NCBI GenBank assembly: GCA_963734175.1
Contig: CAVTGC010000005.1
Coordinates: 6,329 to 70,328, forward strand
Direction of reading: 5' to 3'
DNA: 64,000 nucleotides
Origin: an uncultured Candidatus Rokubacteria bacterium
GTDB taxonomy: Bacteria; Methylomirabilota; Methylomirabilia; Rokubacteriales; CSP1-6
The notes under the pieces were generated by a model, which did no database searches, had not been told where the DNA came from, and saw only the letters and a list, made by a program, of their open reading frames with translations. This document shows positions 32,593-52,024 of the stretch, in pieces (within the stretch, counting starts at the first letter, position 1; each line of letters begins with the position of its first letter). A program made the translations under genes and the position numbers.

Positions 32593-33606
32593 ATGCGAAT
32601 CGGCTTTCATCTCACCCCGTTCTGGAGTCCGACCGATCGACCCCCGACCCGGATCATCGACGAGGCCATCGAGGTCGTCGCCGCCGCCTCGCGGATGGGC
32701 TTCGCGTGGGTGTCGATCGGCCAGCACTGGCTCTCGCACCCCACGGTGTGGCCGCAGCCGCTGCCGATGCTCGCGCGGCTGGCGCCGGAGACGGGCGCCA
32801 TGCGGCTGAAGACCTCCGTGCTGCTGCTGCCGATCCTCAACCCGGTCGAGGTCGCCGAGGGCGTCGCCACGCTCGACCACATCACGCACGGGCGGCTCGA
32901 CGTCGGCGTGGCCATCGGCTATCGCGAGCTGGAGCTGGGCGTGGCCGGCCTCGTTCGAGCCGACCGGGTGCCCAAGCTCGAGGAGTCGCTCGCGCTCATG
33001 AAATCGCTCTGGCGCGGCGAGGAGGTCACCTTCAAGGGTCGCTACACGCGCGTGGAGGGCGGCCGCCTGGGCTTCACGCCGTACCAGACGCCGCACCCGC
33101 CGCTCGAGATGGGCGCGCAGAGTGAGGGAGCCACCCGCCGGGCCGCGCGATTGACCGATGGCGTGTTCTTCGGCCCCCAGCTCGGCTGGGCCGACGTCGC
33201 CCGGTTCGGCGCGATGTTCCGCGAGGAGCGCGCCGCCGTCGGGGCGGCCACCGCCGGCTACGTGGGCGCCTCGCGCAGCCTGATCGTCGGCGCGTCGAAG
33301 GAAGCCGCGGCGGCGGCGGCGCGCGGCTATCTGGAGAAGACGTTCACCATGTACCGCACGTGGCGCATGCAGGAGTCCACCATGGGCCGCCTGCAGCTCG
33401 GCTTCGAGGCCAGCCTGGACGACTGGACCATCCACGGCTCGCCGGCCGACTGCGTGGAGACGATCGAGCGGGCTCGCGCCATGGGCCTCGAGCGCATCGG
33501 CTTCACGATCTACAGCCTGCCGCCCGACGTCCGCGCCCGCATCGACTACCTACAGATGATCGCCGAGCGGATCGTGGCGCCCGTGAGCGATGCGCGTCGC
33601 CCGTGA
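32593..33606 (+). CDS. LLM-class flavin-dependent oxidoreductase
   Basis: SIGQHW, NPVEVAEGVATLDHITHGRLDVGVAIGYR. Confidence 0.88.
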   Translation: MRIGFHLTPFWSPTDRPPTRIIDEAIEVVAAASRMGFAWVSIGQHWLSHPTVWPQPLPMLARLAPETGAMRLKTSVLLLPILNPVEVAEGVATLDHITHGRLDVGVAIGYRELELGVAGLVRADRVPKLEESLALMKSLWRGEEVTFKGRYTRVEGGRLGFTPYQTPHPPLEMGAQSEGATRRAARLTDGVFFGPQLGWADVARFGAMFREERAAVGAATAGYVGASRSLIVGASKEAAAAAARGYLEKTFTMYRTWRMQESTMGRLQLGFEASLDDWTIHGSPADCVETIERARAMGLERIGFTIYSLPPDVRARIDYLQMIAERIVAPVSDARRP

Positions 33607-34033
33607 GGTCGCCCTGGCCGCGCCGACCGAGATCGTGTGGCGGCTCCTGTGGGACGTGCCGCGCATGGTCGGCTGCGTGCCGGGCTGCGTGGAGGCGCGC
33701 GAGGTGGAGCCGCGCCAGCGCTACCAGGCGCGCATGAGCCAGCGGGTGGGGCCGATCGCGCTGTCGGTGCCGCTCGACATCCGCGTCACCGAGGAGGCGC
33801 CGGGCCGGCTGGCGCTGCAGGCCCGCGGGCGCGACCGTCTGCTCGCGGCCGAGGTCCACATGTCGGTGCATCTGGCCGTCGACGGCACGGAGGCTGGGAG
33901 CCGGCTGGTCATCGAGGCCGAGGGCCGGGTGCTCGGCGCGCTGGGCGCCCTCGGCGCCAGCGTCATCCAGCGCCGGGCCGAGGATCTGGTGGACGAGTTC
34001 GTGGCCCGCCTGCAGGGCGCCCTCGGCGGCTGA
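33590..34033 (+). CDS. CoxG/SRPBCC-family protein
   Basis: VWRLLWDVPRMVGCVPGC; G.LGALG.SVIQRRAE. Confidence 0.8.
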   Translation: MRVAREVALAAPTEIVWRLLWDVPRMVGCVPGCVEAREVEPRQRYQARMSQRVGPIALSVPLDIRVTEEAPGRLALQARGRDRLLAAEVHMSVHLAVDGTEAGSRLVIEAEGRVLGALGALGASVIQRRAEDLVDEFVARLQGALGG

Positions 34034-34036
34034 CCC

Positions 34037-34930
34037 GTGCTGCGCGCCTTCGAGCTGCATCGACCGACGACGGTCGCCGAGGCGGCGGCGCTGCTGGCCG
34101 CGCGGCCCGAGGCCGCGCTCTACGCGGGTGGCACCGAGCTGCTGCTCCTGATGAAGGCCGGCCTCGTGCGACCCGCCGACGTGATCGACCTCAAGCGTAT
34201 CCCCGGTCTCGACGGCCTCGCCGAGGCGGCCGGTGGACTGGCGATCGGCGCCACCGTCACCCACCGGGCGCTCGAGCGCGACCCGGTCGTCCGCGCCCGG
34301 TGGCCGCTGGTCGCCGCCGTGGCCGCCCACGTCGCCAACGTGCGCGTGCGCAACGTCGGAACCGTCGGCGGCAACCTGGCCTTCGCCGACCCGCACAGCG
34401 ATCTCGCCACGCTGTTCCTGCTCTTCGACGCGACGGTGGGACTGGCCTCGGCGACCGGCGCCCGCGAGCTGCCGCTGGCCGAGCTGATCCGCGGCCCCTA
34501 CGAGACGGCGCGTCGACTCGACGAGGTGCTCACCGGCGTACGGTTGCGCGCGTGGCCGGCTCGCACGGTCGGTGTCTACGTGAAGTTCGGCCTGCACGAG
34601 CGGCCCACGCTCGGCCTCGGCCTGGCCGTCACGCTCGACGCGAGCGATCGCGTCATCGCCGCCCGCCTGGCCGTGGGCTGCGTGAGCCCGCGACCCCACC
34701 GCGTCGAGGCGGCCGAGCGGGCGCTGGTCGGCCACCCGGTCGGCACGCGCGCCGACGAGGTGGCCACGCTGGCGGCGGCGGCGGTGGACCCGCTGAGCGA
34801 CCTGCACGGCGGCGCCGACTACAAGCGAGAGCTGACGCGCGTCTTCACCCGACGGGCGCTCGCCGCCGTCACCGCGCGCGCCCACAGCCGTCCCCTCGAC
34901 GCCCGATACCCGCATGCCATCGTCGTTTGA
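34037..34930 (+). CDS. Molybdenum hydroxylase FAD-binding (medium) subunit
   Basis: AGGTELL, VRNVGTVGGNLAFADPHSD, D..G.ADYKR. Confidence 0.9.
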   Translation: MLRAFELHRPTTVAEAAALLAARPEAALYAGGTELLLLMKAGLVRPADVIDLKRIPGLDGLAEAAGGLAIGATVTHRALERDPVVRARWPLVAAVAAHVANVRVRNVGTVGGNLAFADPHSDLATLFLLFDATVGLASATGARELPLAELIRGPYETARRLDEVLTGVRLRAWPARTVGVYVKFGLHERPTLGLGLAVTLDASDRVIAARLAVGCVSPRPHRVEAAERALVGHPVGTRADEVATLAAAAVDPLSDLHGGADYKRELTRVFTRRALAAVTARAHSRPLDARYPHAIVV

Positions 34931-46320: not shown

Positions 46321-47283
46321 ATGGCCGCCGAACCGAACGCCTCGTTCTTCTCGCTCACGCCCGATCGCGTCCTCGACGCCGTGGAAGTGGGCGGGCTGCG
46401 CAGCACCGGGCGCTGCCTGCCGCTGCGCGCCTTCGAGAACCGCGTGTACGAGGTGGAGCTGGAGGACGAGAGCCGCCTGGTCGTGAAGTTCTATCGGCCC
46501 GGGCGCTGGTCGCGCGAGACCATCCTGGACGAGCACGCCTTCCTGGCCGACCTCGCCGAGGCCGAGGTGCCGGTGGTGGCGCCGATGGACCTCGGCGCCG
46601 GCGTCACCCTGAACGAGATCGAGGGGATCTACTACGCCGCGTTCCCGAGGATCCGCGGGCGCTCGCTGGACGAGCTGGACGCCGAGCACCGCCGGCAGAT
46701 CGGCCGCACGCTGGGTCGCCTGCACGCCGTCGGTGCCGCCCGCCCGGCGCCGCACCGGCCGAAGGTGGGCGTGGAGTACTACATCCACGAGCCGCTCCGG
46801 ATCCTGATGGAAGGCGACTTCATCCCCGGCACGCTGGCGCCTCGCTACCGCGACGTCGCCCTGCGCATCGCCGATCTGGCGGCCAAGCCGCTGGCCGCCG
46901 CCCGCATGCAGCGCATCCACGGCGACCTGCACTGGGGCAACATCCTGTGGACGCGCGACGGCCCCGTCCTGGTCGACTTCGACGACAGCGCCATGGGGCC
47001 GCCGATGCAGGACCTGTGGCTGCTGGCCCGAGGCCGCGACGAGGAAGCCAAGAAGGCCCGCGAGGATCTGCTCGAGGGCTACGAGGTCTTCCGCGAGTTC
47101 GACCGGGCGTCGCTGGCGCTGATCGAGCCGCTGCGGGCCATGCGCATCGTGTACATGTCGGGCTGGATCGCCAAGCGGTGGGACGATCCCTCGTTCCCCC
47201 ACGCATATCCGAACTTCAAGGACGTGCGGTACTGGATGCAGGAGTACGAGGCGCTGGTGGAGATTGCCGAGCAGCTCGCCTAG
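46321..47283 (+). CDS. srkA: Stress-response Ser/Thr kinase SrkA/RdoA (YihE)
   Basis: FENRVY, KFYRPGRWS..TILDEH, RIHGDLHWGN, DFDD, QDLWLL, IEPLRAMR...WIA.RW.DP.FP. Confidence 0.9.
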   Translation: MAAEPNASFFSLTPDRVLDAVEVGGLRSTGRCLPLRAFENRVYEVELEDESRLVVKFYRPGRWSRETILDEHAFLADLAEAEVPVVAPMDLGAGVTLNEIEGIYYAAFPRIRGRSLDELDAEHRRQIGRTLGRLHAVGAARPAPHRPKVGVEYYIHEPLRILMEGDFIPGTLAPRYRDVALRIADLAAKPLAAARMQRIHGDLHWGNILWTRDGPVLVDFDDSAMGPPMQDLWLLARGRDEEAKKAREDLLEGYEVFREFDRASLALIEPLRAMRIVYMSGWIAKRWDDPSFPHAYPNFKDVRYWMQEYEALVEIAEQLA

Positions 47284-47290
47284 CCCCCCG

Positions 47291-47968
47291 CTGTCCCGTC
47301 GCCGGCTCGTCCTGGCGGGCCTGGCCGCCGCCCTGTGGCCACGCCGGGCGCTCGGGGGGGCGGCCGTCGTGGTCGAAGACTGGAGTGCGCCTCCCCTCGG
47401 GCTGCACGGCGTGCCTCCGGGCTGGAGGAGCTACGAGACGCCGGGGGGCCATCCGCGCTACGACTTCACCGTCGTCGAGGACAGTGGGCGCCGCGCGCTC
47501 GAGCTGAAGAGCGAGAACGAGCACTCCACGATCGCCCGGGAGATCGACGTCGACCTGGCCGCCACGCCCGTGCTCGAGTGGGCCTGGCGCGTCATCATCC
47601 AGCCCGCCGAGGCCGATCTCACGAAGCGGACGACCTCGGACGCGAGCGGCCACGTCTTCGTCGTGTGGCCGCGATTTCCGGCCATGCTGCGCTCGCGCCT
47701 GATCGGGTACATCTGGGACCCGGTGATCCCCGTCGACACGATCGTGCCCAGCCCGAAGACCAGCCTGGTGTCGTTCGTGGTGGCGCGCTCGGGGCCGCGC
47801 GGCCTGGGCCAGTGGTCGATCGAGCGGCACGACGTGGCCGCCGACTACCGGCGGATCTACGGCGAGCCGGCGCCGAAGCCGGGCGCCGTGGCCCTGTCGA
47901 TCGACACCAACGACACCCGGGCCAGCGCCGCCGCGCGCTTCGGCCGGATCGCGTTCCTGCCGCGCTGA
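47291..47968 (+). CDS. DUF3047-family protein, probable Tat substrate (start uncertain)
   Basis: SRRRLVLAGL signal; TPVLEWAWRV, IGYIW, W..ERHDVAADYRRIYG, IDTNDT. Confidence 0.75.
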   Translation: MSRRRLVLAGLAAALWPRRALGGAAVVVEDWSAPPLGLHGVPPGWRSYETPGGHPRYDFTVVEDSGRRALELKSENEHSTIAREIDVDLAATPVLEWAWRVIIQPAEADLTKRTTSDASGHVFVVWPRFPAMLRSRLIGYIWDPVIPVDTIVPSPKTSLVSFVVARSGPRGLGQWSIERHDVAADYRRIYGEPAPKPGAVALSIDTNDTRASAAARFGRIAFLPR

Positions 47969-48822
47969 TGGACCGCGCCTTCCCGATCGTCAGGCACCCG
48001 GCGCCGGACCGGCGCACGCCCGTTCTGGTGAGCGTGCCCCACTACGGGACCGAACCCCTGCCGCACATCACCCGCGAGGACTACGTCGAGCCGCGGTTCG
48101 AGACCTTCGCTTACGGGTTCGCCGACACCTTCGCCAGCGACCTCTACGGCGACCTGCACGAGCACGGCGCCACCGTCCTGGCCACCCCGGTATCGCGGAT
48201 GTTCGTGGACGTCAACCGACGGCGCGACGATTTCGAGCTGCACGACGGCGAGGTCCGCTCGCGCCGCGGGGTGGTGCGCACGCACACGATGCGGGAGGTG
48301 GCCATCTTCGCCCGGCCCCTCGGGGTGGCCGAGCTGGAGGAACGCCTGCGGGCGCTCTACGACCCGTACTACGCCACGCTGGAGCGACTGCTCGGCGAGC
48401 TGCAGCAGACCTACGGGCACGCGCTGCTGCTGGACGGGCACACCGGCAGCCCCCGCCGGATGCACGACCACCAGGTCATCATCGGCACCCGCCACGACGC
48501 GACGTGCGACGCGCGGCTGGCCCTGGCCGTGGGCGAGATCTTCGGCCGCCACGGCTTCGAGGTGCACCAGAACGTCAGCGGCTACACCGGCGGCAACATC
48601 GTCGCCACCTACGGCCACCCGCAGGCGCGGCGGGTGCACGCCCTGCAGCTGGAGATCAACGCTTCGCTGCTGATGACCACCAGCCGCGAGGAGTACATCG
48701 CGCACATCACGCGGGGAGGCGTGCCGGAGAAGGCGGAGGCGAACATTGCGCGGGTGCGCGCGTGCCTGCTGGAGGTGGTGGCGGCGCTGCCGGCGGTGCT
48801 GGCGTCCGTCTGCGAGGCGTAG
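47968..48822 (+). CDS. N-formylglutamate amidohydrolase family
   Basis: LVSVPHYG, ADTF, SRMFVDVNR, YDPYY, LLDGHT, HALQLEIN. Confidence 0.85.
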   Translation: MDRAFPIVRHPAPDRRTPVLVSVPHYGTEPLPHITREDYVEPRFETFAYGFADTFASDLYGDLHEHGATVLATPVSRMFVDVNRRRDDFELHDGEVRSRRGVVRTHTMREVAIFARPLGVAELEERLRALYDPYYATLERLLGELQQTYGHALLLDGHTGSPRRMHDHQVIIGTRHDATCDARLALAVGEIFGRHGFEVHQNVSGYTGGNIVATYGHPQARRVHALQLEINASLLMTTSREEYIAHITRGGVPEKAEANIARVRACLLEVVAALPAVLASVCEA

Positions 48823-48919: not shown

Positions 48920-49945
48920 ATGACGCGTGCCGCTGCCGAGGTCGCCGTCGCCGGCTGGACGGAGGCCGTCGAGGCGTACTTCGAGCGAGGCTGGACCGAC
49001 GGCCTGCCGGTGGTGCCGGCCACCGCCGAGACCGTGGGCCCGTTCCTGGCGGCGGTCGGCCGGGCTCCCGGCGACGTGGTGCTGAGCGAGACGACGCGGC
49101 GGCGTACCATCACCGCCGAGAAGGTGGCGATCAACGCGGTGCTGGCCGGCTGCCGGCCGGAGTACATGCCGGTGCTGCTCGCCGCGCTCGAGGCGATGGC
49201 CGACCCCGCGTTCACGCTGCACGGTGCCATCACCAGCACGGGCGGCTCGGCCACGCTGGTCGTCGTCAACGGTCCCATCCGGGAGCGCCTCGGCCTCAAC
49301 GCCGCCGGCAATGTCTTCGGCCCCGGCTGGCGGGCCAACGCCACCATCGGCCGCGCCATCCGGCTCATCACGCTCAACTGTCTCGGGGCGCTGCCGGGGC
49401 TGCTCGATCGCTCGACGCAGGGCCACCCGGGCAAGTACTCCTACTGCATCGCCGAGCTGGAGGAGGAGAATCCCTGGGAGCCGCTGCACGTGACGCGCGG
49501 ACTGGCGCCAGGGACGAGCGCGGTGACCGTCTTCGCCGCCGAGGGGCCGCACAACGTGCTGAGCCACTACGGCGAGACGGCGGAGTCGGTGATCGTGGCG
49601 ATGGCCGACACGATGGCCAGCCTGGGTAGCTTCAGCCCCGGCGAGTCCTTCGTCGTCCTGGCCCCGGAGCACGTCCAGATCCTGCACCGCGACGGCTGGA
49701 CGAAGCCGAGCATCCGTGAGGCCCTCTACGCGCGCGCCCGCCGCACCGTTGCCGACCTCAAGCGGGGCGGCAAGACGGCCGGGGCAGTGGTGCCGGCCGA
49801 CGAGACGACGTGGGTGCATCGCGGCCGTGGGCCGGACGACATCCACCTGGTGGTGGCCGGCGGCGGGGCCGGCGGGCACTCGGCCTTCATCCCGTCCTGG
49901 AGCCGCGACCGCAACTCGCTGGCGGTCACAAAGGAGATCCGATGA
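48920..49945 (+). CDS. Conserved uncharacterised partner of UGSC-family (seleno)proteins
   Basis: GWTDGLPVVP, NAVLAGCRPEY, STGG...VVVNGP, RANATIGRA.RL, GHPGKY; GGGAGG RBS; ATGA overlap with the next gene. Confidence 0.75.
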   Translation: MTRAAAEVAVAGWTEAVEAYFERGWTDGLPVVPATAETVGPFLAAVGRAPGDVVLSETTRRRTITAEKVAINAVLAGCRPEYMPVLLAALEAMADPAFTLHGAITSTGGSATLVVVNGPIRERLGLNAAGNVFGPGWRANATIGRAIRLITLNCLGALPGLLDRSTQGHPGKYSYCIAELEEENPWEPLHVTRGLAPGTSAVTVFAAEGPHNVLSHYGETAESVIVAMADTMASLGSFSPGESFVVLAPEHVQILHRDGWTKPSIREALYARARRTVADLKRGGKTAGAVVPADETTWVHRGRGPDDIHLVVAGGGAGGHSAFIPSWSRDRNSLAVTKEIR

Positions 49946-50475
49946 CCCTGAAGATTCTCGATCCGACCGTGAGCGCCGACGCGGCGACCGACGTCGCCGT
50001 CGCCAAGCGCGTCCCCGACCTCGACGGCAAGGTGCTGGGCCTGCTGCACAACGGCAAGGTCAACGGTGATCGCCTGCTCCAGCTCGTCGGCGAGCATCTC
50101 GCGACGCGCTACGGGCTGCGCGACGTGATCGCCGTGCGCAAGCCCAGCGCCAGCCGGGTGGCCGAGGACGTCATCCTCGACCGGCTCGCACGGGAGTGCG
50201 ACGCCGTCGTCACCGCCATCGGCGATTGAGGGTCCTGCTCCACGTGCAGTTTGCACGACGGGATCGAGCTGGATCGACGAGGGGTACCGGCGGCGGTGAT
50301 CTGTACCGATCAGTTCGTGGCCAGCGCCAGAGCCCAGGCAGAGATCTGCGGCAACCCGGGCTATGAGTTCGCGGTCGTGGCCCATCCGCTCGGCAGCCTG
50401 ACGGCCGCCGAGCTGCGGGACCGGGCGGCCGCCGCGGTGCCGCAGGTGATCGCGATCCTCACGGGCACGGCGTGA
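49942..50475 (+). CDS. UGSC-family selenoprotein (177 aa, Sec at codon 96)
   Basis: AAGGAG RBS; the reading frame continues through TGA 50227-50229 as AIGD-U-GSCSTCSLHDGIELDRRGVPAAVIC...HP; SECIS-like hairpin immediately 3'. Confidence 0.88.
50230..50265 (+). promoter_or_regulatory. Putative bacterial SECIS element
   Basis: Lower stem GGTCCTG (50231-37) / CGGGATC (50259-65); upper stem CGTGCA (50243-48) / TGCACG (50252-57); apical loop GTT starting with G, 20 nt after the UGA. Confidence 0.75.
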
Positions 50476-50523: not shown

Positions 50524-51576
50524 ATGCGCCACAAGATCGCGTTGATTCCCGGGGACGGCATCGGCAAGGAGGTCGTGCCGGCCGCAGCCCGGGTGCTGGA
50601 CGTCGCCGGCAAGCGGTTCGGCTTCGAGTTCGAGTGGCAGACGTTCGACTGGTCGTGCGAGACGTACGCCAGGACCGGCCGCATGATGCCGGAGGACGGG
50701 CTCGAGCAGCTCCGGAGGTTCGAGTCGATCTTCCTCGGGGCCGTCGGCTTTCCCGGTGTGCCCGACCACGTGTCGCTGTGGGGGCTGTTGATTCCCATCC
50801 GGCGCGGGTTCCACCAGTACATCAACCTGCGCCCCGTGCGGCTGCTCAAGGGGGTGAAGTCGCCGCTGGCCGGGCGGGGGCCGAGCGACATCGACATGCT
50901 GATCGTGCGCGAGAACAACGAGGGCGAGTACTCGGAGATCGGCGGCCGGCTCTACAAGGGCGCGCCGGAGGAGATGGCCGTGCAACAGGCCATCTTCACG
51001 CGCAAGGGGTGCGACCGGGTCATGCGCTTCGCCTTCGAGCAGGCCAAGAAGCGGCGCCAGCACGTGACCTCGGCCACCAAGTCCAACGGCATCATCCACA
51101 GCATGCCGTACTGGGACGAGCGCTTCGCCGCGATGAGCAAGGAGTACCCGGGCATCAAGACCGCGCAGTTCCACATCGACATCCTCACCGCCCACTTCGT
51201 GCAGCACCCCGACTGGTTCGACGTGGTCGTCGGCTCCAACCTGTTCGGCGACATCCTGTCCGACCTCGGCCCCGCCATCGCCGGCTCGATCGGCATCGCG
51301 CCTGGCGGCAACATCAACCCCGAGAAGGAGTACCCGTCCATGTTCGAGCCGGTGCACGGCTCGGCGCCGGACATCGCCGGCAAGAACGTCGCCAACCCGA
51401 TCGCCCAGATCTGGACTGGCGCCATGATGCTCGATCACCTCGGCCACCCCGACGCGGCCACGGCGGTCGTCGGCGCCATCGAGAAGGTGGTCGAGGAGGC
51501 GAAGACGGTCACCCGCGACCTTGGTGGCAAGGCCAGCACGACCGAGGCCGCCGACGCCGTCGCCGCGCTGCTGTAG
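50524..51576 (+). CDS. ttuC: Tartrate dehydrogenase / D-malate dehydrogenase (decarboxylating)
   Basis: IPGDGIGKEV, VPDHVSLWGLLIPIRR, RENNEGEYS, TSATKSNG...MPYWD, NLFGDILSDL, FEPVHGSAPDI. Confidence 0.85.
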   Translation: MRHKIALIPGDGIGKEVVPAAARVLDVAGKRFGFEFEWQTFDWSCETYARTGRMMPEDGLEQLRRFESIFLGAVGFPGVPDHVSLWGLLIPIRRGFHQYINLRPVRLLKGVKSPLAGRGPSDIDMLIVRENNEGEYSEIGGRLYKGAPEEMAVQQAIFTRKGCDRVMRFAFEQAKKRRQHVTSATKSNGIIHSMPYWDERFAAMSKEYPGIKTAQFHIDILTAHFVQHPDWFDVVVGSNLFGDILSDLGPAIAGSIGIAPGGNINPEKEYPSMFEPVHGSAPDIAGKNVANPIAQIWTGAMMLDHLGHPDAATAVVGAIEKVVEEAKTVTRDLGGKASTTEAADAVAALL

Positions 51577-51580
51577 CCCG

Positions 51581-52024
51581 GTGCTCATCCGCCGCTACAG
51601 GCCGGACGACTTCGAGGGCGTCACCGACCTGTGGCGGCGGGCCCGTGTCCACGCCTATGGCGACTTCCAGGTGCGCAAGGGCTACACCCTCGAACGGGAT
51701 CGCGAGTACTTCCGTGAGGTCGTCCAGGTCAGGAACGACCTGTGGGTGGCCGAGGTCGACGATCACCCGGGGGCGTTCATGGCGCTCGCCGGAGACTTCA
51801 TCGACCAGCTCTTCGTCGCGCCGGAGCACCAGCGACGGGGGCTGGGGACGGCGCTGCTCGCGCACGCACGGGGGCTGTCGCCGTCGGGGTTGAGGCTCTA
51901 CACCTTCCAGTTCAACGGCAACGCGCGCGCCTTCTACGAGAAGCACGGGTTCGTCGTGGCCTGCCTCGGCGTCAGCCCGCCGCCGGAGTCCGAGCCCGAC
52001 GTCGAGTACCACTGGCGCCCGTGA
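51581..52024 (+). CDS. GNAT-family acetyltransferase
   Basis: IDQLFVAPEHQRRGLGTALL; N..ARAFYEKHGF. Confidence 0.88.
   Translation: MLIRRYRPDDFEGVTDLWRRARVHAYGDFQVRKGYTLERDREYFREVVQVRNDLWVAEVDDHPGAFMALAGDFIDQLFVAPEHQRRGLGTALLAHARGLSPSGLRLYTFQFNGNARAFYEKHGFVVACLGVSPPPESEPDVEYHWRP

What the first reader, a model, noticed from the sequence alone, without database searches (positions are those of the whole stretch)
49942..50475. Hidden selenoprotein: in-frame UGA in a U-G-S-C-x-x-C motif with a SECIS-like hairpin
Seen: the ORF track splits this locus into 49810-50229 and 50251-50475, but both pieces are in one frame separated only by TGA (50227-50229). Reading through gives AIGD-U-GSCSTCSLHD. Directly 3' lies a two-stem hairpin (GGTCCTG/CGGGATC, CGTGCA/TGCACG) with a G-starting apical loop 20 nt from the UGA, the geometry of bacterial SECIS elements. 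Established: UGSC-motif proteins are a recognised selenoprotein family of unknown function, and automatic annotation usually breaks them. Inference: a U96-x-x-C99-x-x-C102 redox centre, and the organism should encode selA/selB/selC/selD elsewhere.
Basis: partly seen in the sequence, partly recalled or inferred. Interest (0 to 1): 0.85.

Follow-up and report, generated by a model that had tools for sequence, protein, structure and literature searches.

The report
UGSC-family selenoprotein gene, split by annotation
The two small reading frames are one gene for a known but uncharacterised selenoprotein (UGSC family). Its in-frame UGA is read as selenocysteine with the help of a conserved RNA hairpin, so it is an ordinary member of a catalogued family, always found beside an unnamed partner gene.

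Summary
ATG 49942 to TGA 50475 is one frame interrupted only by TGA 50227-50229.

- **Family:** read through, the 177-aa product is a full-length member of Pfam PF24696 (UGSC) and passes the curated cut-off of NCBIfam NF041046 "UGSC family (seleno)protein".
- **Sec/Cys column:** in 80 genome loci, 45 homologous genes carry TGA and 42 carry TGC/TGT at this column.
- **SECIS:** only the apical 6-bp stem with its GUN loop (50243-50257) is supported. It is perfect in 37/41 Sec forms against 3/42 Cys forms. It has three compensatory pairs and is built from codons that are very rare in this genome.
- **C102:** it is not a family-conserved residue. Its codon forms one arm of the hairpin, so a U-x-x-C-x-x-C centre is not supported. 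U96-x-x-C99 is invariant.
- **Fold:** the predicted fold is flavodoxin-like, not thioredoxin-like. There is weak, recurrent similarity to PrdB/GrdB selenoprotein B.
- **Partner:** a translationally coupled 341-aa gene (48920-49945) of a large unnamed family accompanies UGSC in about 75 of 80 loci and is often fused to it.
- **Not tested:** Sec machinery could not be examined beyond the window.

The family has been known since at least 2007, so this is a new member of a known kind.

The parts
48920..49945 (+). Partner gene (341 aa) of a large unnamed family; its TGA stop (49943-49945) overlaps the UGSC start codon
   Evidence: Found on the same strand next to UGSC in about 75 of 80 genome loci. 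No Pfam, NCBIfam or PDB match. The family has 5216 50%-identity cluster representatives, about a quarter of the best 150 being fused to a UGSC domain.
49931..49936 (+). Shine-Dalgarno-like AAGGAG, 5 nt before the ATG
   Evidence: Read directly from the sequence.
49942..50475 (+). UGSC-family selenoprotein gene: 177 codons including UGA-Sec at codon 96, ending at TGA 50473-50475
   Evidence: PF24696 at 195 bits, positions 1-171 of 172. NF041046 at 143.8 bits against a cut-off of 125. Alignment with Cys and Sec homologues.
50227..50229 (+). In-frame UGA, predicted selenocysteine codon (U96)
   Evidence: 45 homologous genes have TGA and 42 have TGC/TGT at this column. The frame and the GSCS motif continue after it.
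50243..50257 (+). SECIS core: 6-bp stem CGUGCA/UGCACG with loop GUU (50249-50251)
   Evidence: Perfect in 37/41 distinct Sec forms against 3/42 Cys forms, Fisher p = 1.6e-15. 98.4% of cells paired, three pairs with compensatory double changes and no one-sided change. The loop codons AGT and TTG are 0.9% of Ser and 1.3% of Leu codons in the window.
50231..50265 (+).
   Evidence: 76% of cells paired; pair 8-36 is unpaired in 29/41 sequences; only one pair (9-35) shows a two-sided change, in 2 of 41 sequences. Mean 5.3 pairs in Sec forms and 4.7 in Cys forms.

Best explanation
49942-50475 is a single gene for a selenocysteine-containing member of the UGSC protein family.

Shown by sequence comparison: UGA 50227-50229 occupies the column where about half of the homologues have a Cys codon. 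It is followed 13 nt later by a conserved 6-bp hairpin with a GU-starting loop.

Inferred: this hairpin is the bacterial SECIS that recruits SelB with Sec-tRNA(Sec), so that U96 is inserted instead of terminating. U96 sits with C99 (the invariant U/C-G-S-C-S) at the N-terminal end of a helix that follows strand 3 of a flavodoxin-like alpha/beta domain. Together they form a selenol/thiol redox or nucleophilic pair.

Inferred from gene order, translational coupling and many gene fusions: the protein works as one enzyme with the product of the upstream gene 48920-49945. That partner is the larger, probably substrate-binding subunit and has near-invariant Cys78 and Cys176.

The best available analogy, not a demonstrated homology of function, is selenoprotein B of D-proline and glycine reductases (PrdB/GrdB). 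There a U-x-x-C selenocysteine attacks a substrate held by the partner subunit, and the resulting Se-S bond is then re-reduced.
For: Family membership and the Sec/Cys column:
- Full-length family match above the curated threshold.
- Cys/Sec column and continued conservation after the UGA in 87 genes from several phyla.
- Five independent Rokubacteria/Methylomirabilota assemblies keep the TGA (L001-L005).

SECIS:
- Apical hairpin with compensatory changes UA->GC/AU, GC->CG and CG->GC, and no one-sided changes.
- The hairpin is nearly absent from Cys forms.
- Ser103 is AGT in the 39 Sec genes that share this hairpin type, and rare AGT-TTG codons are used here.
- GC3 drops from 0.94 to 0.80 just after the UGA.

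Protein:
- High-confidence model of a Cys homologue (pLDDT 94.6) with the motif at a strand-helix junction.
- Invariant residues G94, U/C96, G97, S98, C99, S100, D106, F125, H148 and P149.
- 26/45 members weakly match the PrdB model and 14/45 the GrdB model. Four selenoprotein-B models (GrdB, the general selenoprotein-B model, GrdH, GrdF) map window residues 68-71 onto profile positions 320-324.
- PrdB is also a UxxC selenoprotein. Its Sec attacks the substrate alpha-carbon.

Partner:
- Adjacent in about 75 of 80 loci, with an ATGA overlap.
- UGSC-partner fusions in both orders. Partner fusions to AhpC/TSA-redoxin CxxC domains instead of UGSC.

Literature: UGSC is a recognised selenoprotein family of unknown function.
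Against: - No direct evidence of Sec insertion. No selA, selB, selD or tRNA-Sec lies in the 64-kb window, and the rest of the genome could not be searched.
- Alone, the hairpin is not more stable than shuffled sequence.
- Both arms of the stem lie in codons of residues that are common in Sec forms (Cys102, His105), so part of the conservation could be protein-driven.
- The PrdB/GrdB similarity is far below curated cut-offs (18.7 bits against 602). Residue-level alignment of Sec on Sec was not shown.
- The partner shows no similarity to PrdA/GrdE or to anything else.
- Several fused UGSC domains have lost both Cys, so the domain may also have a purely structural role.
Confidence: 0.9

Rival explanations
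1. The TGA is a sequencing or assembly error, or a recent nonsense mutation (pseudogene), in a Cys-type UGSC gene.
For: TGA differs from TGC/TGT by one base, and many homologues have Cys there.
Against: The same TGA is present in 45 genes from independent assemblies, including five Rokubacteria/Methylomirabilota relatives at 68-94% amino-acid identity. The downstream frame stays intact and conserved. The SECIS-type hairpin and rare loop codons co-occur specifically with TGA.
Confidence: 0.02
2. UGA is a true stop. The locus makes a 95-aa N-terminal protein and possibly a separate 74-81-aa C-terminal protein from the TTG at 50251.
For: Gene callers produce exactly these two products. Termination always competes with Sec insertion, so some truncated product is likely in vivo.
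Against: The predicted fold is a single continuous alpha/beta domain, with the break at a strand-helix junction. The TTG at 50251 lies inside the hairpin loop and has no ribosome-binding site. Cys homologues are always one chain. The invariant G-S-C-S immediately after the stop would have no purpose in a spacer.
Confidence: 0.04
3. UGA is decoded, but not as Sec: for example by near-cognate Trp or Cys read-through, or by Cys inserted through the Sec pathway when selenium is scarce.
For: The Sec machinery was not seen.
Against: TGA is used as an ordinary stop by the partner gene and by this gene's own end, so the genetic code is standard. The hairpin has the features shared by bacterial SECIS elements, a small apical loop containing G. 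The family is a recognised Sec/Cys family.
Confidence: 0.04

Closest known systems
UGSC family (seleno)protein (NCBIfam NF041046; Pfam PF24696); 'UGSC-containing protein' of Zhang & Gladyshev (PMC1976440, PMC2398784)
   Same: Full-length match above curated thresholds. The U-G-S-C motif is at the family's Sec/Cys column. Same length of about 180 aa. The SECIS lies directly 3' of the UGA. Function is unknown here as in the family.
   Different: Nothing essential; this is a member. The literature guessed a thioredoxin-like fold, but the model here is flavodoxin-like.
Selenoprotein B of D-proline, glycine, betaine and sarcosine reductases (PrdB, GrdB, GrdH, GrdF; TIGR04483, TIGR01917, TIGR01918)
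   Same: U-x-x-C selenocysteine motif. Weak but recurrent and colinear profile similarity around the motif. Works with a second, larger subunit encoded next to it.
   Different: Scores are far below the family cut-offs. The partner is not PrdA/GrdE-like and no pyruvoyl proprotein is recognisable. The hosts are mostly aerobic soil and groundwater lineages rather than Stickland fermenters. Many family members use Cys, whereas PrdB U151C was inactive.
Bacterial SECIS elements (E. coli fdhF type; bSECISearch consensus)
   Same: A stem-loop within the coding sequence just after the UGA, with a small apical loop that starts with G and U. The UGCA-loop-UGCA core resembles the fdhF upper stem (from my own knowledge). 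The spacer from UGA to the stem is 13 nt, comparable with 11 nt in fdhF (from my own knowledge).
   Different: The loop is very short, 3 nt or 5 nt if the A-U closing pair opens. There is no conserved bulged U and no conserved lower helix. SelB binding was not tested.

Membership tests
UGSC family (seleno)protein (NF041046 / PF24696) | Whole-protein score above the curated cut-off, covering the full model | tested here: met
   NF041046 at 143.8 bits against a cut-off of 125. PF24696 at 195.3 bits against 25, profile positions 1-171 of 172.
UGSC family (seleno)protein (NF041046 / PF24696) | [U/C]-G-S-C motif at the conserved column, with Cys homologues aligned to the UGA | tested here: met
   C/U96, G97, S98, C99 and S100 are invariant. 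45 TGA and 42 TGC/TGT genes share the column.
UGSC family (seleno)protein (NF041046 / PF24696) | Selenium actually incorporated at residue 96 | not testable with these tools
   Needs 75Se labelling or mass spectrometry.
Bacterial SECIS element | Stem-loop immediately 3' of the UGA with a small apical loop containing G | tested here: met
   6-bp stem at +17..+31 with loop GUN in 39 of 41 distinct Sec forms. The feature is as described in PMC1088965.
Bacterial SECIS element | Structure maintained by compensatory change and specific to Sec forms | tested here: met
   Apical helix: 98.4% of cells paired, 3 pairs with two-sided changes, no one-sided change. Perfect in 37/41 Sec forms against 3/42 Cys forms. 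The lower helix fails this test.
Bacterial SECIS element | Bound by SelB; the genome encodes selA, selB, selC and selD | not testable with these tools
   No tRNA-Sec and no SelA/SelB/SelD signature motifs in the window or in the loci held.
PrdB/GrdB selenoprotein B | Score above the curated cut-off of TIGR04483, TIGR01917 or TIGR01918 | tested here: not met
   18.7 bits against 602 and 17.5 against 65. Best member E-values are 7.6e-6 (GrdB) and 1.6e-4 (PrdB). At most a distant relative.
PrdB/GrdB selenoprotein B | Adjacent pyruvoyl-forming proprotein (PrdA/GrdE) | tested here: not met
   The adjacent conserved gene matches no Pfam or NCBIfam family.
Thioredoxin-fold oxidoreductases (fold suggested for UGSC in PMC2398784) | Thioredoxin fold | tested here: not met
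   The model (pLDDT 94.6) is a five-strand alternating beta-alpha sandwich. The best PDB matches are flavodoxin, WrbA, SsuE and lumazine synthase at TM about 0.45-0.5, and no thioredoxin appears among the top 50.

The most novel reading that the evidence does not exclude
UGSC and its unnamed 340-aa partner together form a widespread, completely uncharacterised two-subunit (seleno)thiol-dependent enzyme. The partner family has at least 5,000 50%-identity clusters, no Pfam or NCBIfam model and no solved structure. The enzyme may be a soil and groundwater counterpart of the PrdAB/GrdBE-type substrate reductases. The partner would be the catalytic subunit and would accept interchangeable CxxC or UxxC electron or nucleophile modules: UGSC, AhpC/TSA-redoxin, NifU-like or FTR-like.
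Probability: 0.3. Interest if true: 0.7.

Novelty: new member of a known kind. Interest (0 to 1): 0.3.

Why it matters
For the genome, it corrects two bogus small ORFs into one selenoprotein gene. It also flags the organism as a selenocysteine user.

For the field, it adds little on its own, because the UGSC family has been catalogued since 2007 and now has Pfam and NCBIfam models. The useful by-products are:
- a precise, covariation-supported SECIS core for this family;
- evidence that the third Cys seen in Sec forms is an RNA-imposed residue rather than a catalytic one;
- a flavodoxin-like rather than thioredoxin-like fold;
- a near-obligate partner gene of a very large unnamed family, often fused to UGSC.

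The partner gives a concrete route to the still unknown function: co-expression, pull-down and structure of the Cys-type pair from cultivable actinomycetes.

Tried and rejected
- **Rfam:** no family at gathering threshold over the whole window, and only noise at E <= 10 around the site.
- **Single-sequence folding against shuffles:** not significant, so the argument rests on comparative data.
- **PDB sequence searches:** the UGSC profile and two partner profiles found nothing credible.
- **Fold search with the partner model (pLDDT 73.8):** no significant match. The best hits were IRG1/MmgE-PrpD and the selenophosphate-synthetase C-domain at E about 0.15 and TM below 0.2, which I do not trust.
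- **Source contig:** an exact-protein look-up failed. The closest genome locus is L002 (a Rokubacteria MAG) at 94-99% amino-acid identity.
- **Wider gene context:** it varies between clades. Luciferase-like monooxygenase occurs in 24 loci, Zn-ADH in 19, IclR in 18, Amidohydro_2 in 17 and NHL propeller in 13, with housekeeping genes in others. It gave no specific substrate hypothesis. A first clustering was polluted by alternative-frame ORFs of high-G+C DNA.
- **Other in-frame TGA candidates in the window:** 34031, 50473, 25195 and 31032 are simply ends of genes followed by in-frame neighbours.
- **Sec machinery:** motif scans for SelA, SelB and SelD and tRNA-Sec scans of the window and loci were negative. 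These results are uninformative about the whole genome.

Full report
**1. The observation**

ORF 49810-50229 and ORF 50251-50475 are in the same frame and are separated only by TGA 50227-50229.

Translating 49942-50475 gives 177 codons with one internal stop...CDAVVTAIGD*GSCSTCSLHDGIELDRR....

The real start is ATG 49942:
- close homologues begin MT(MT)LKILDPTV;
- AAGGAG lies at 49931-49936;
- the ATG overlaps the TGA stop of the upstream gene as ATGA.

That fold (-23.7 kcal/mol) is no better than dinucleotide shuffles of this 71% G+C sequence (z = -0.35). The hairpin therefore cannot be judged from this one sequence.

**2. What the protein is**

With U written as C, the product matches Pfam PF24696 (UGSC family) over positions 1-171 of 172 at 195 bits. 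It matches NCBIfam NF041046, "UGSC family (seleno)protein", at 143.8 bits, above the curated cut-off of 125.

A search of the 5.8-billion-protein collection returned 113 relatives:
- about 80 are full-length (175-190 aa) and read G-D-C-G-S-C-S at the site;
- about 25 are fragments of 97-112 aa that stop at ...TAIGD, which are Sec forms cut at the UGA by gene callers. The closest, P0001 (85% identical), lies on a contig where the caller produced the same 97-aa plus 74-aa split.

A scan of one genome per species returned 80 loci. In these, 45 UGSC genes have TGA and 42 have TGC/TGT at the identical column, and the frame and the GSCS motif continue after every TGA.
- Sec forms are in Rokubacteria/Methylomirabilota, Dehalococcoidia and other Chloroflexota, Terriglobales, Dormiibacterota and Binatia.
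- Cys forms are mostly Actinomycetota.

The best locus, L002, is from a "Candidatus Rokubacteria" MAG. It is 94% identical in this protein and 95-99% identical in the neighbouring proteins. The window very probably comes from a close relative. Five independent assemblies of this clade (L001-L005) keep the TGA, which rules out a sequencing error or a recent nonsense mutation.

**3. The SECIS**

I extracted the 45-63 nt after each UGA. Counting from the U of UGA, the stem pairs positions 17-22 with 26-31 (window 50243-50248 with 50252-50257).
- It is perfect in 37 of 41 distinct Sec forms but in only 3 of 42 Cys forms (Fisher p = 1.6e-15).
- On the alignment of Sec forms, 98.4% of its cells are paired. 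Three of six pairs show changes on both sides (U-A to G-C or A-U; G-C to C-G; C-G to G-C) and none shows a one-sided change.
- All register-shift controls collapse.

The compensatory changes alter amino acids on both arms. Cys102/His105 becomes Ala/Ala, Ser/Leu or Trp/His, the last with a synonymous Val GTG to GTC change opposite. The pairing, not the residues, is therefore what is kept.

The loop is G-U-N in 39 of 41 Sec forms. Its G and U come from Ser103, which is AGT in those 39 Sec genes. In this window AGT is 0.9% of Ser codons and TTG is 1.3% of Leu codons, yet AGT-TTG are used side by side in the loop. GC3 falls from 0.94 before the UGA to 0.80 after it.

A small apical loop containing G, directly 3' of the UGA, is the shared feature of bacterial SECIS elements.

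Across Sec forms, however, only 76% of its cells are paired, one pair is unpaired in 29 of 41 sequences, and only one pair shows any two-sided change, in two sequences. It scores about the same in Cys forms, 4.7 against 5.3 of 7 pairs. It is most simply a by-product of the conserved codons GGN-TCN-TGC and GAC-GGN-ATC.

**4. The redox motif**

Across 45 diverse full-length members the invariant residues are G94, U/C96, G97, S98, C99, S100, D106, F125, H148 and P149.

C102 is not among them. The proposed U96-x-x-C99-x-x-C102 centre is therefore not supported, while U96-x-x-C99 is.

**5. Fold and distant relatives**

The model is confident (pLDDT 94.6). It is an alternating beta-alpha domain with five strands, and the motif sits between strand 3 and the following helix. 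Its best PDB neighbours are flavodoxin-like proteins (WrbA, SsuE, flavodoxin, lumazine synthase) at TM about 0.45-0.5. No thioredoxin appears among the top 50, and nothing is close. No solved structure matches by sequence. The "Trx-like fold" suggested in 2008 is therefore unlikely.

There is a weak but recurrent similarity to selenoprotein B of substrate reductases:
- 26 of 45 members match the PrdB model (best E = 1.6e-4) and 14 of 45 match the GrdB model (best E = 7.6e-6).
- For the window protein, four selenoprotein-B models (GrdB, the general selenoprotein-B model, GrdH, GrdF) map residues 68-71 onto profile positions 320-324. That places U96 near position 347-351. From memory, the GrdB selenocysteine is residue 350, so Sec probably aligns with Sec, but I could not show this residue by residue.
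- PrdB is also a UxxC selenoprotein. Its Sec attacks the alpha-carbon of D-proline held on the pyruvoyl group of PrdA.

All these scores are far below family cut-offs, so this is an analogy and a possible distant relationship, not membership.

**6. The partner gene**

The upstream gene 48920-49945 (341 aa) has no Pfam or NCBIfam match. It has no PDB match, even with a diverse profile. Its moderate-confidence model (pLDDT 73.8) has no significant structural neighbour.

A homologue lies on the same strand directly beside UGSC in about 75 of the 80 loci. It is upstream in Rokubacteria and most Dehalococcoidia and downstream in Actinomycetota. The genes often overlap by 4 nt.

The family is large. 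There are at least 8000 word-sharing candidates, all named "hypothetical", and 5216 representatives of 50%-identity clusters at E <= 1e-3.

Among the best 150 representatives, roughly a quarter are fused to a UGSC domain:
- 9-10 carry a complete N-terminal UGSC domain;
- 22 begin with only the post-Sec half, so the gene call starts after an in-frame TGA. These are selenoprotein fusions;
- 5 end with the pre-Sec half, which is the reverse domain order, cut at the TGA.

Other members carry different domains instead:
- an AhpC/TSA-redoxin CxxC domain (P0314, P0334, P0341);
- a weak NifU-like match below the Pfam cut-off (P0383, E = 0.008), with P0250 similar by eye;
- by eye, a CPC...CPC...CHC segment like the catalytic subunit of ferredoxin:thioredoxin reductase (P0282).

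Cys78 and Cys176 of the partner are nearly invariant.

A UGSC fusion with an "Unknown_1" domain was already noted in 2008. These data argue that the two proteins are subunits of one enzyme and that the small subunit supplies a selenol/thiol (or dithiol) function. A caveat is that several fused UGSC domains have lost both Cys, so the domain also has a structural role.

The wider gene context differs between clades: luciferase-like monooxygenase, Zn-ADH, IclR, Amidohydro_2, NHL propeller, or housekeeping genes. It gives no substrate.

**7. Sec machinery**

The window has one tRNA (Leu) and no tRNA-Sec. It has no SelA, SelB or SelD signature motifs. No other convincing in-frame UGA gene was found, and the loci held have no tRNA-Sec either. 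This says nothing about the whole genome, which I could not search.

A 2026 review reports a Methylomirabilota MAG with 63 predicted selenoprotein genes. Selenocysteine use is therefore documented in the phylum named in the titles of two of the next-closest loci (L004 and L005).

**8. Comparison with what is known, and verdict**

The UGSC-containing protein was listed as a selenoprotein of unknown function in 2007. It was one of the most abundant selenoprotein families in the Global Ocean Sampling data (255 Sec and 21 Cys sequences). It is in current catalogues as NF041046, still uncharacterised.

The finding is therefore correct but not new: it is a new member of a known kind, mis-split by ORF calling. 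The most novel reading still open is that UGSC and its unnamed partner form an uncharacterised two-subunit selenoenzyme distantly analogous to PrdAB/GrdBE.

Noticed in passing
window 48920-49945 (+), and P0234-P0383: The gene upstream of UGSC belongs to a very large family (5216 50%-identity clusters) with no Pfam, NCBIfam or PDB match. Members are fused to UGSC in both orders, to AhpC/TSA-redoxin domains or to a weak NifU-like match, or occur as tandem duplicates of about 710 aa.
   Followed up: partly
L008:15656 and L014:15607: A second UGSC paralogue (UGSCSSALAADATRL) lies 5.4 kb from the first in two Dehalococcoidia MAGs. It has a different hairpin: a 7-bp stem GUCGGCC/GGCCGAC with a 5-nt loop CUUGC or CUGGC, without the GU loop start seen in all other Sec forms.
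   Followed up: no
P0303, P0284, P0357, P0365 (fusion proteins): In several UGSC-partner fusions the UGSC domain has lost both the Sec/Cys and the second Cys, for example GFGWSGVYTIW and AAADIGAAMSW. This suggests a structural role independent of redox chemistry.
   Followed up: no
window 50230-50380: GC3 drops from 0.94 before the UGA to 0.80 in the 50 codons after it. The rare codons AGT and TTG sit in the hairpin loop, a visible footprint of RNA-level selection inside a coding region.
   Followed up: yes
window 34031 (+): A TGA joins two high-GC3 ORFs in one frame (33587-34033 and 34034-34930). The residues after the stop (PVLRAFELHRPTTVAEAAALL...) look like a separate protein beginning right there, so I read it as a gene junction, not a Sec codon. 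Neither ORF was run against a family library.
   Followed up: partly
window 47264-48822 and 50524-52024: The module's immediate neighbours are DUF3047, an N-formylglutamate amidohydrolase-family gene, a tartrate dehydrogenase (TIGR02089, 566 bits) and a GNAT acetyltransferase. The relative L001 has an extra SBP_bac_5 solute-binding gene inserted between UGSC and the dehydrogenase.
   Followed up: partly
P0017 (ENA metagenome protein): One full-length homologue reads G-D-R-S-S-C-S-A-C at the motif, with Arg at the Sec/Cys column. This may be a CGA variant of TGA or an assembly error.
   Followed up: no
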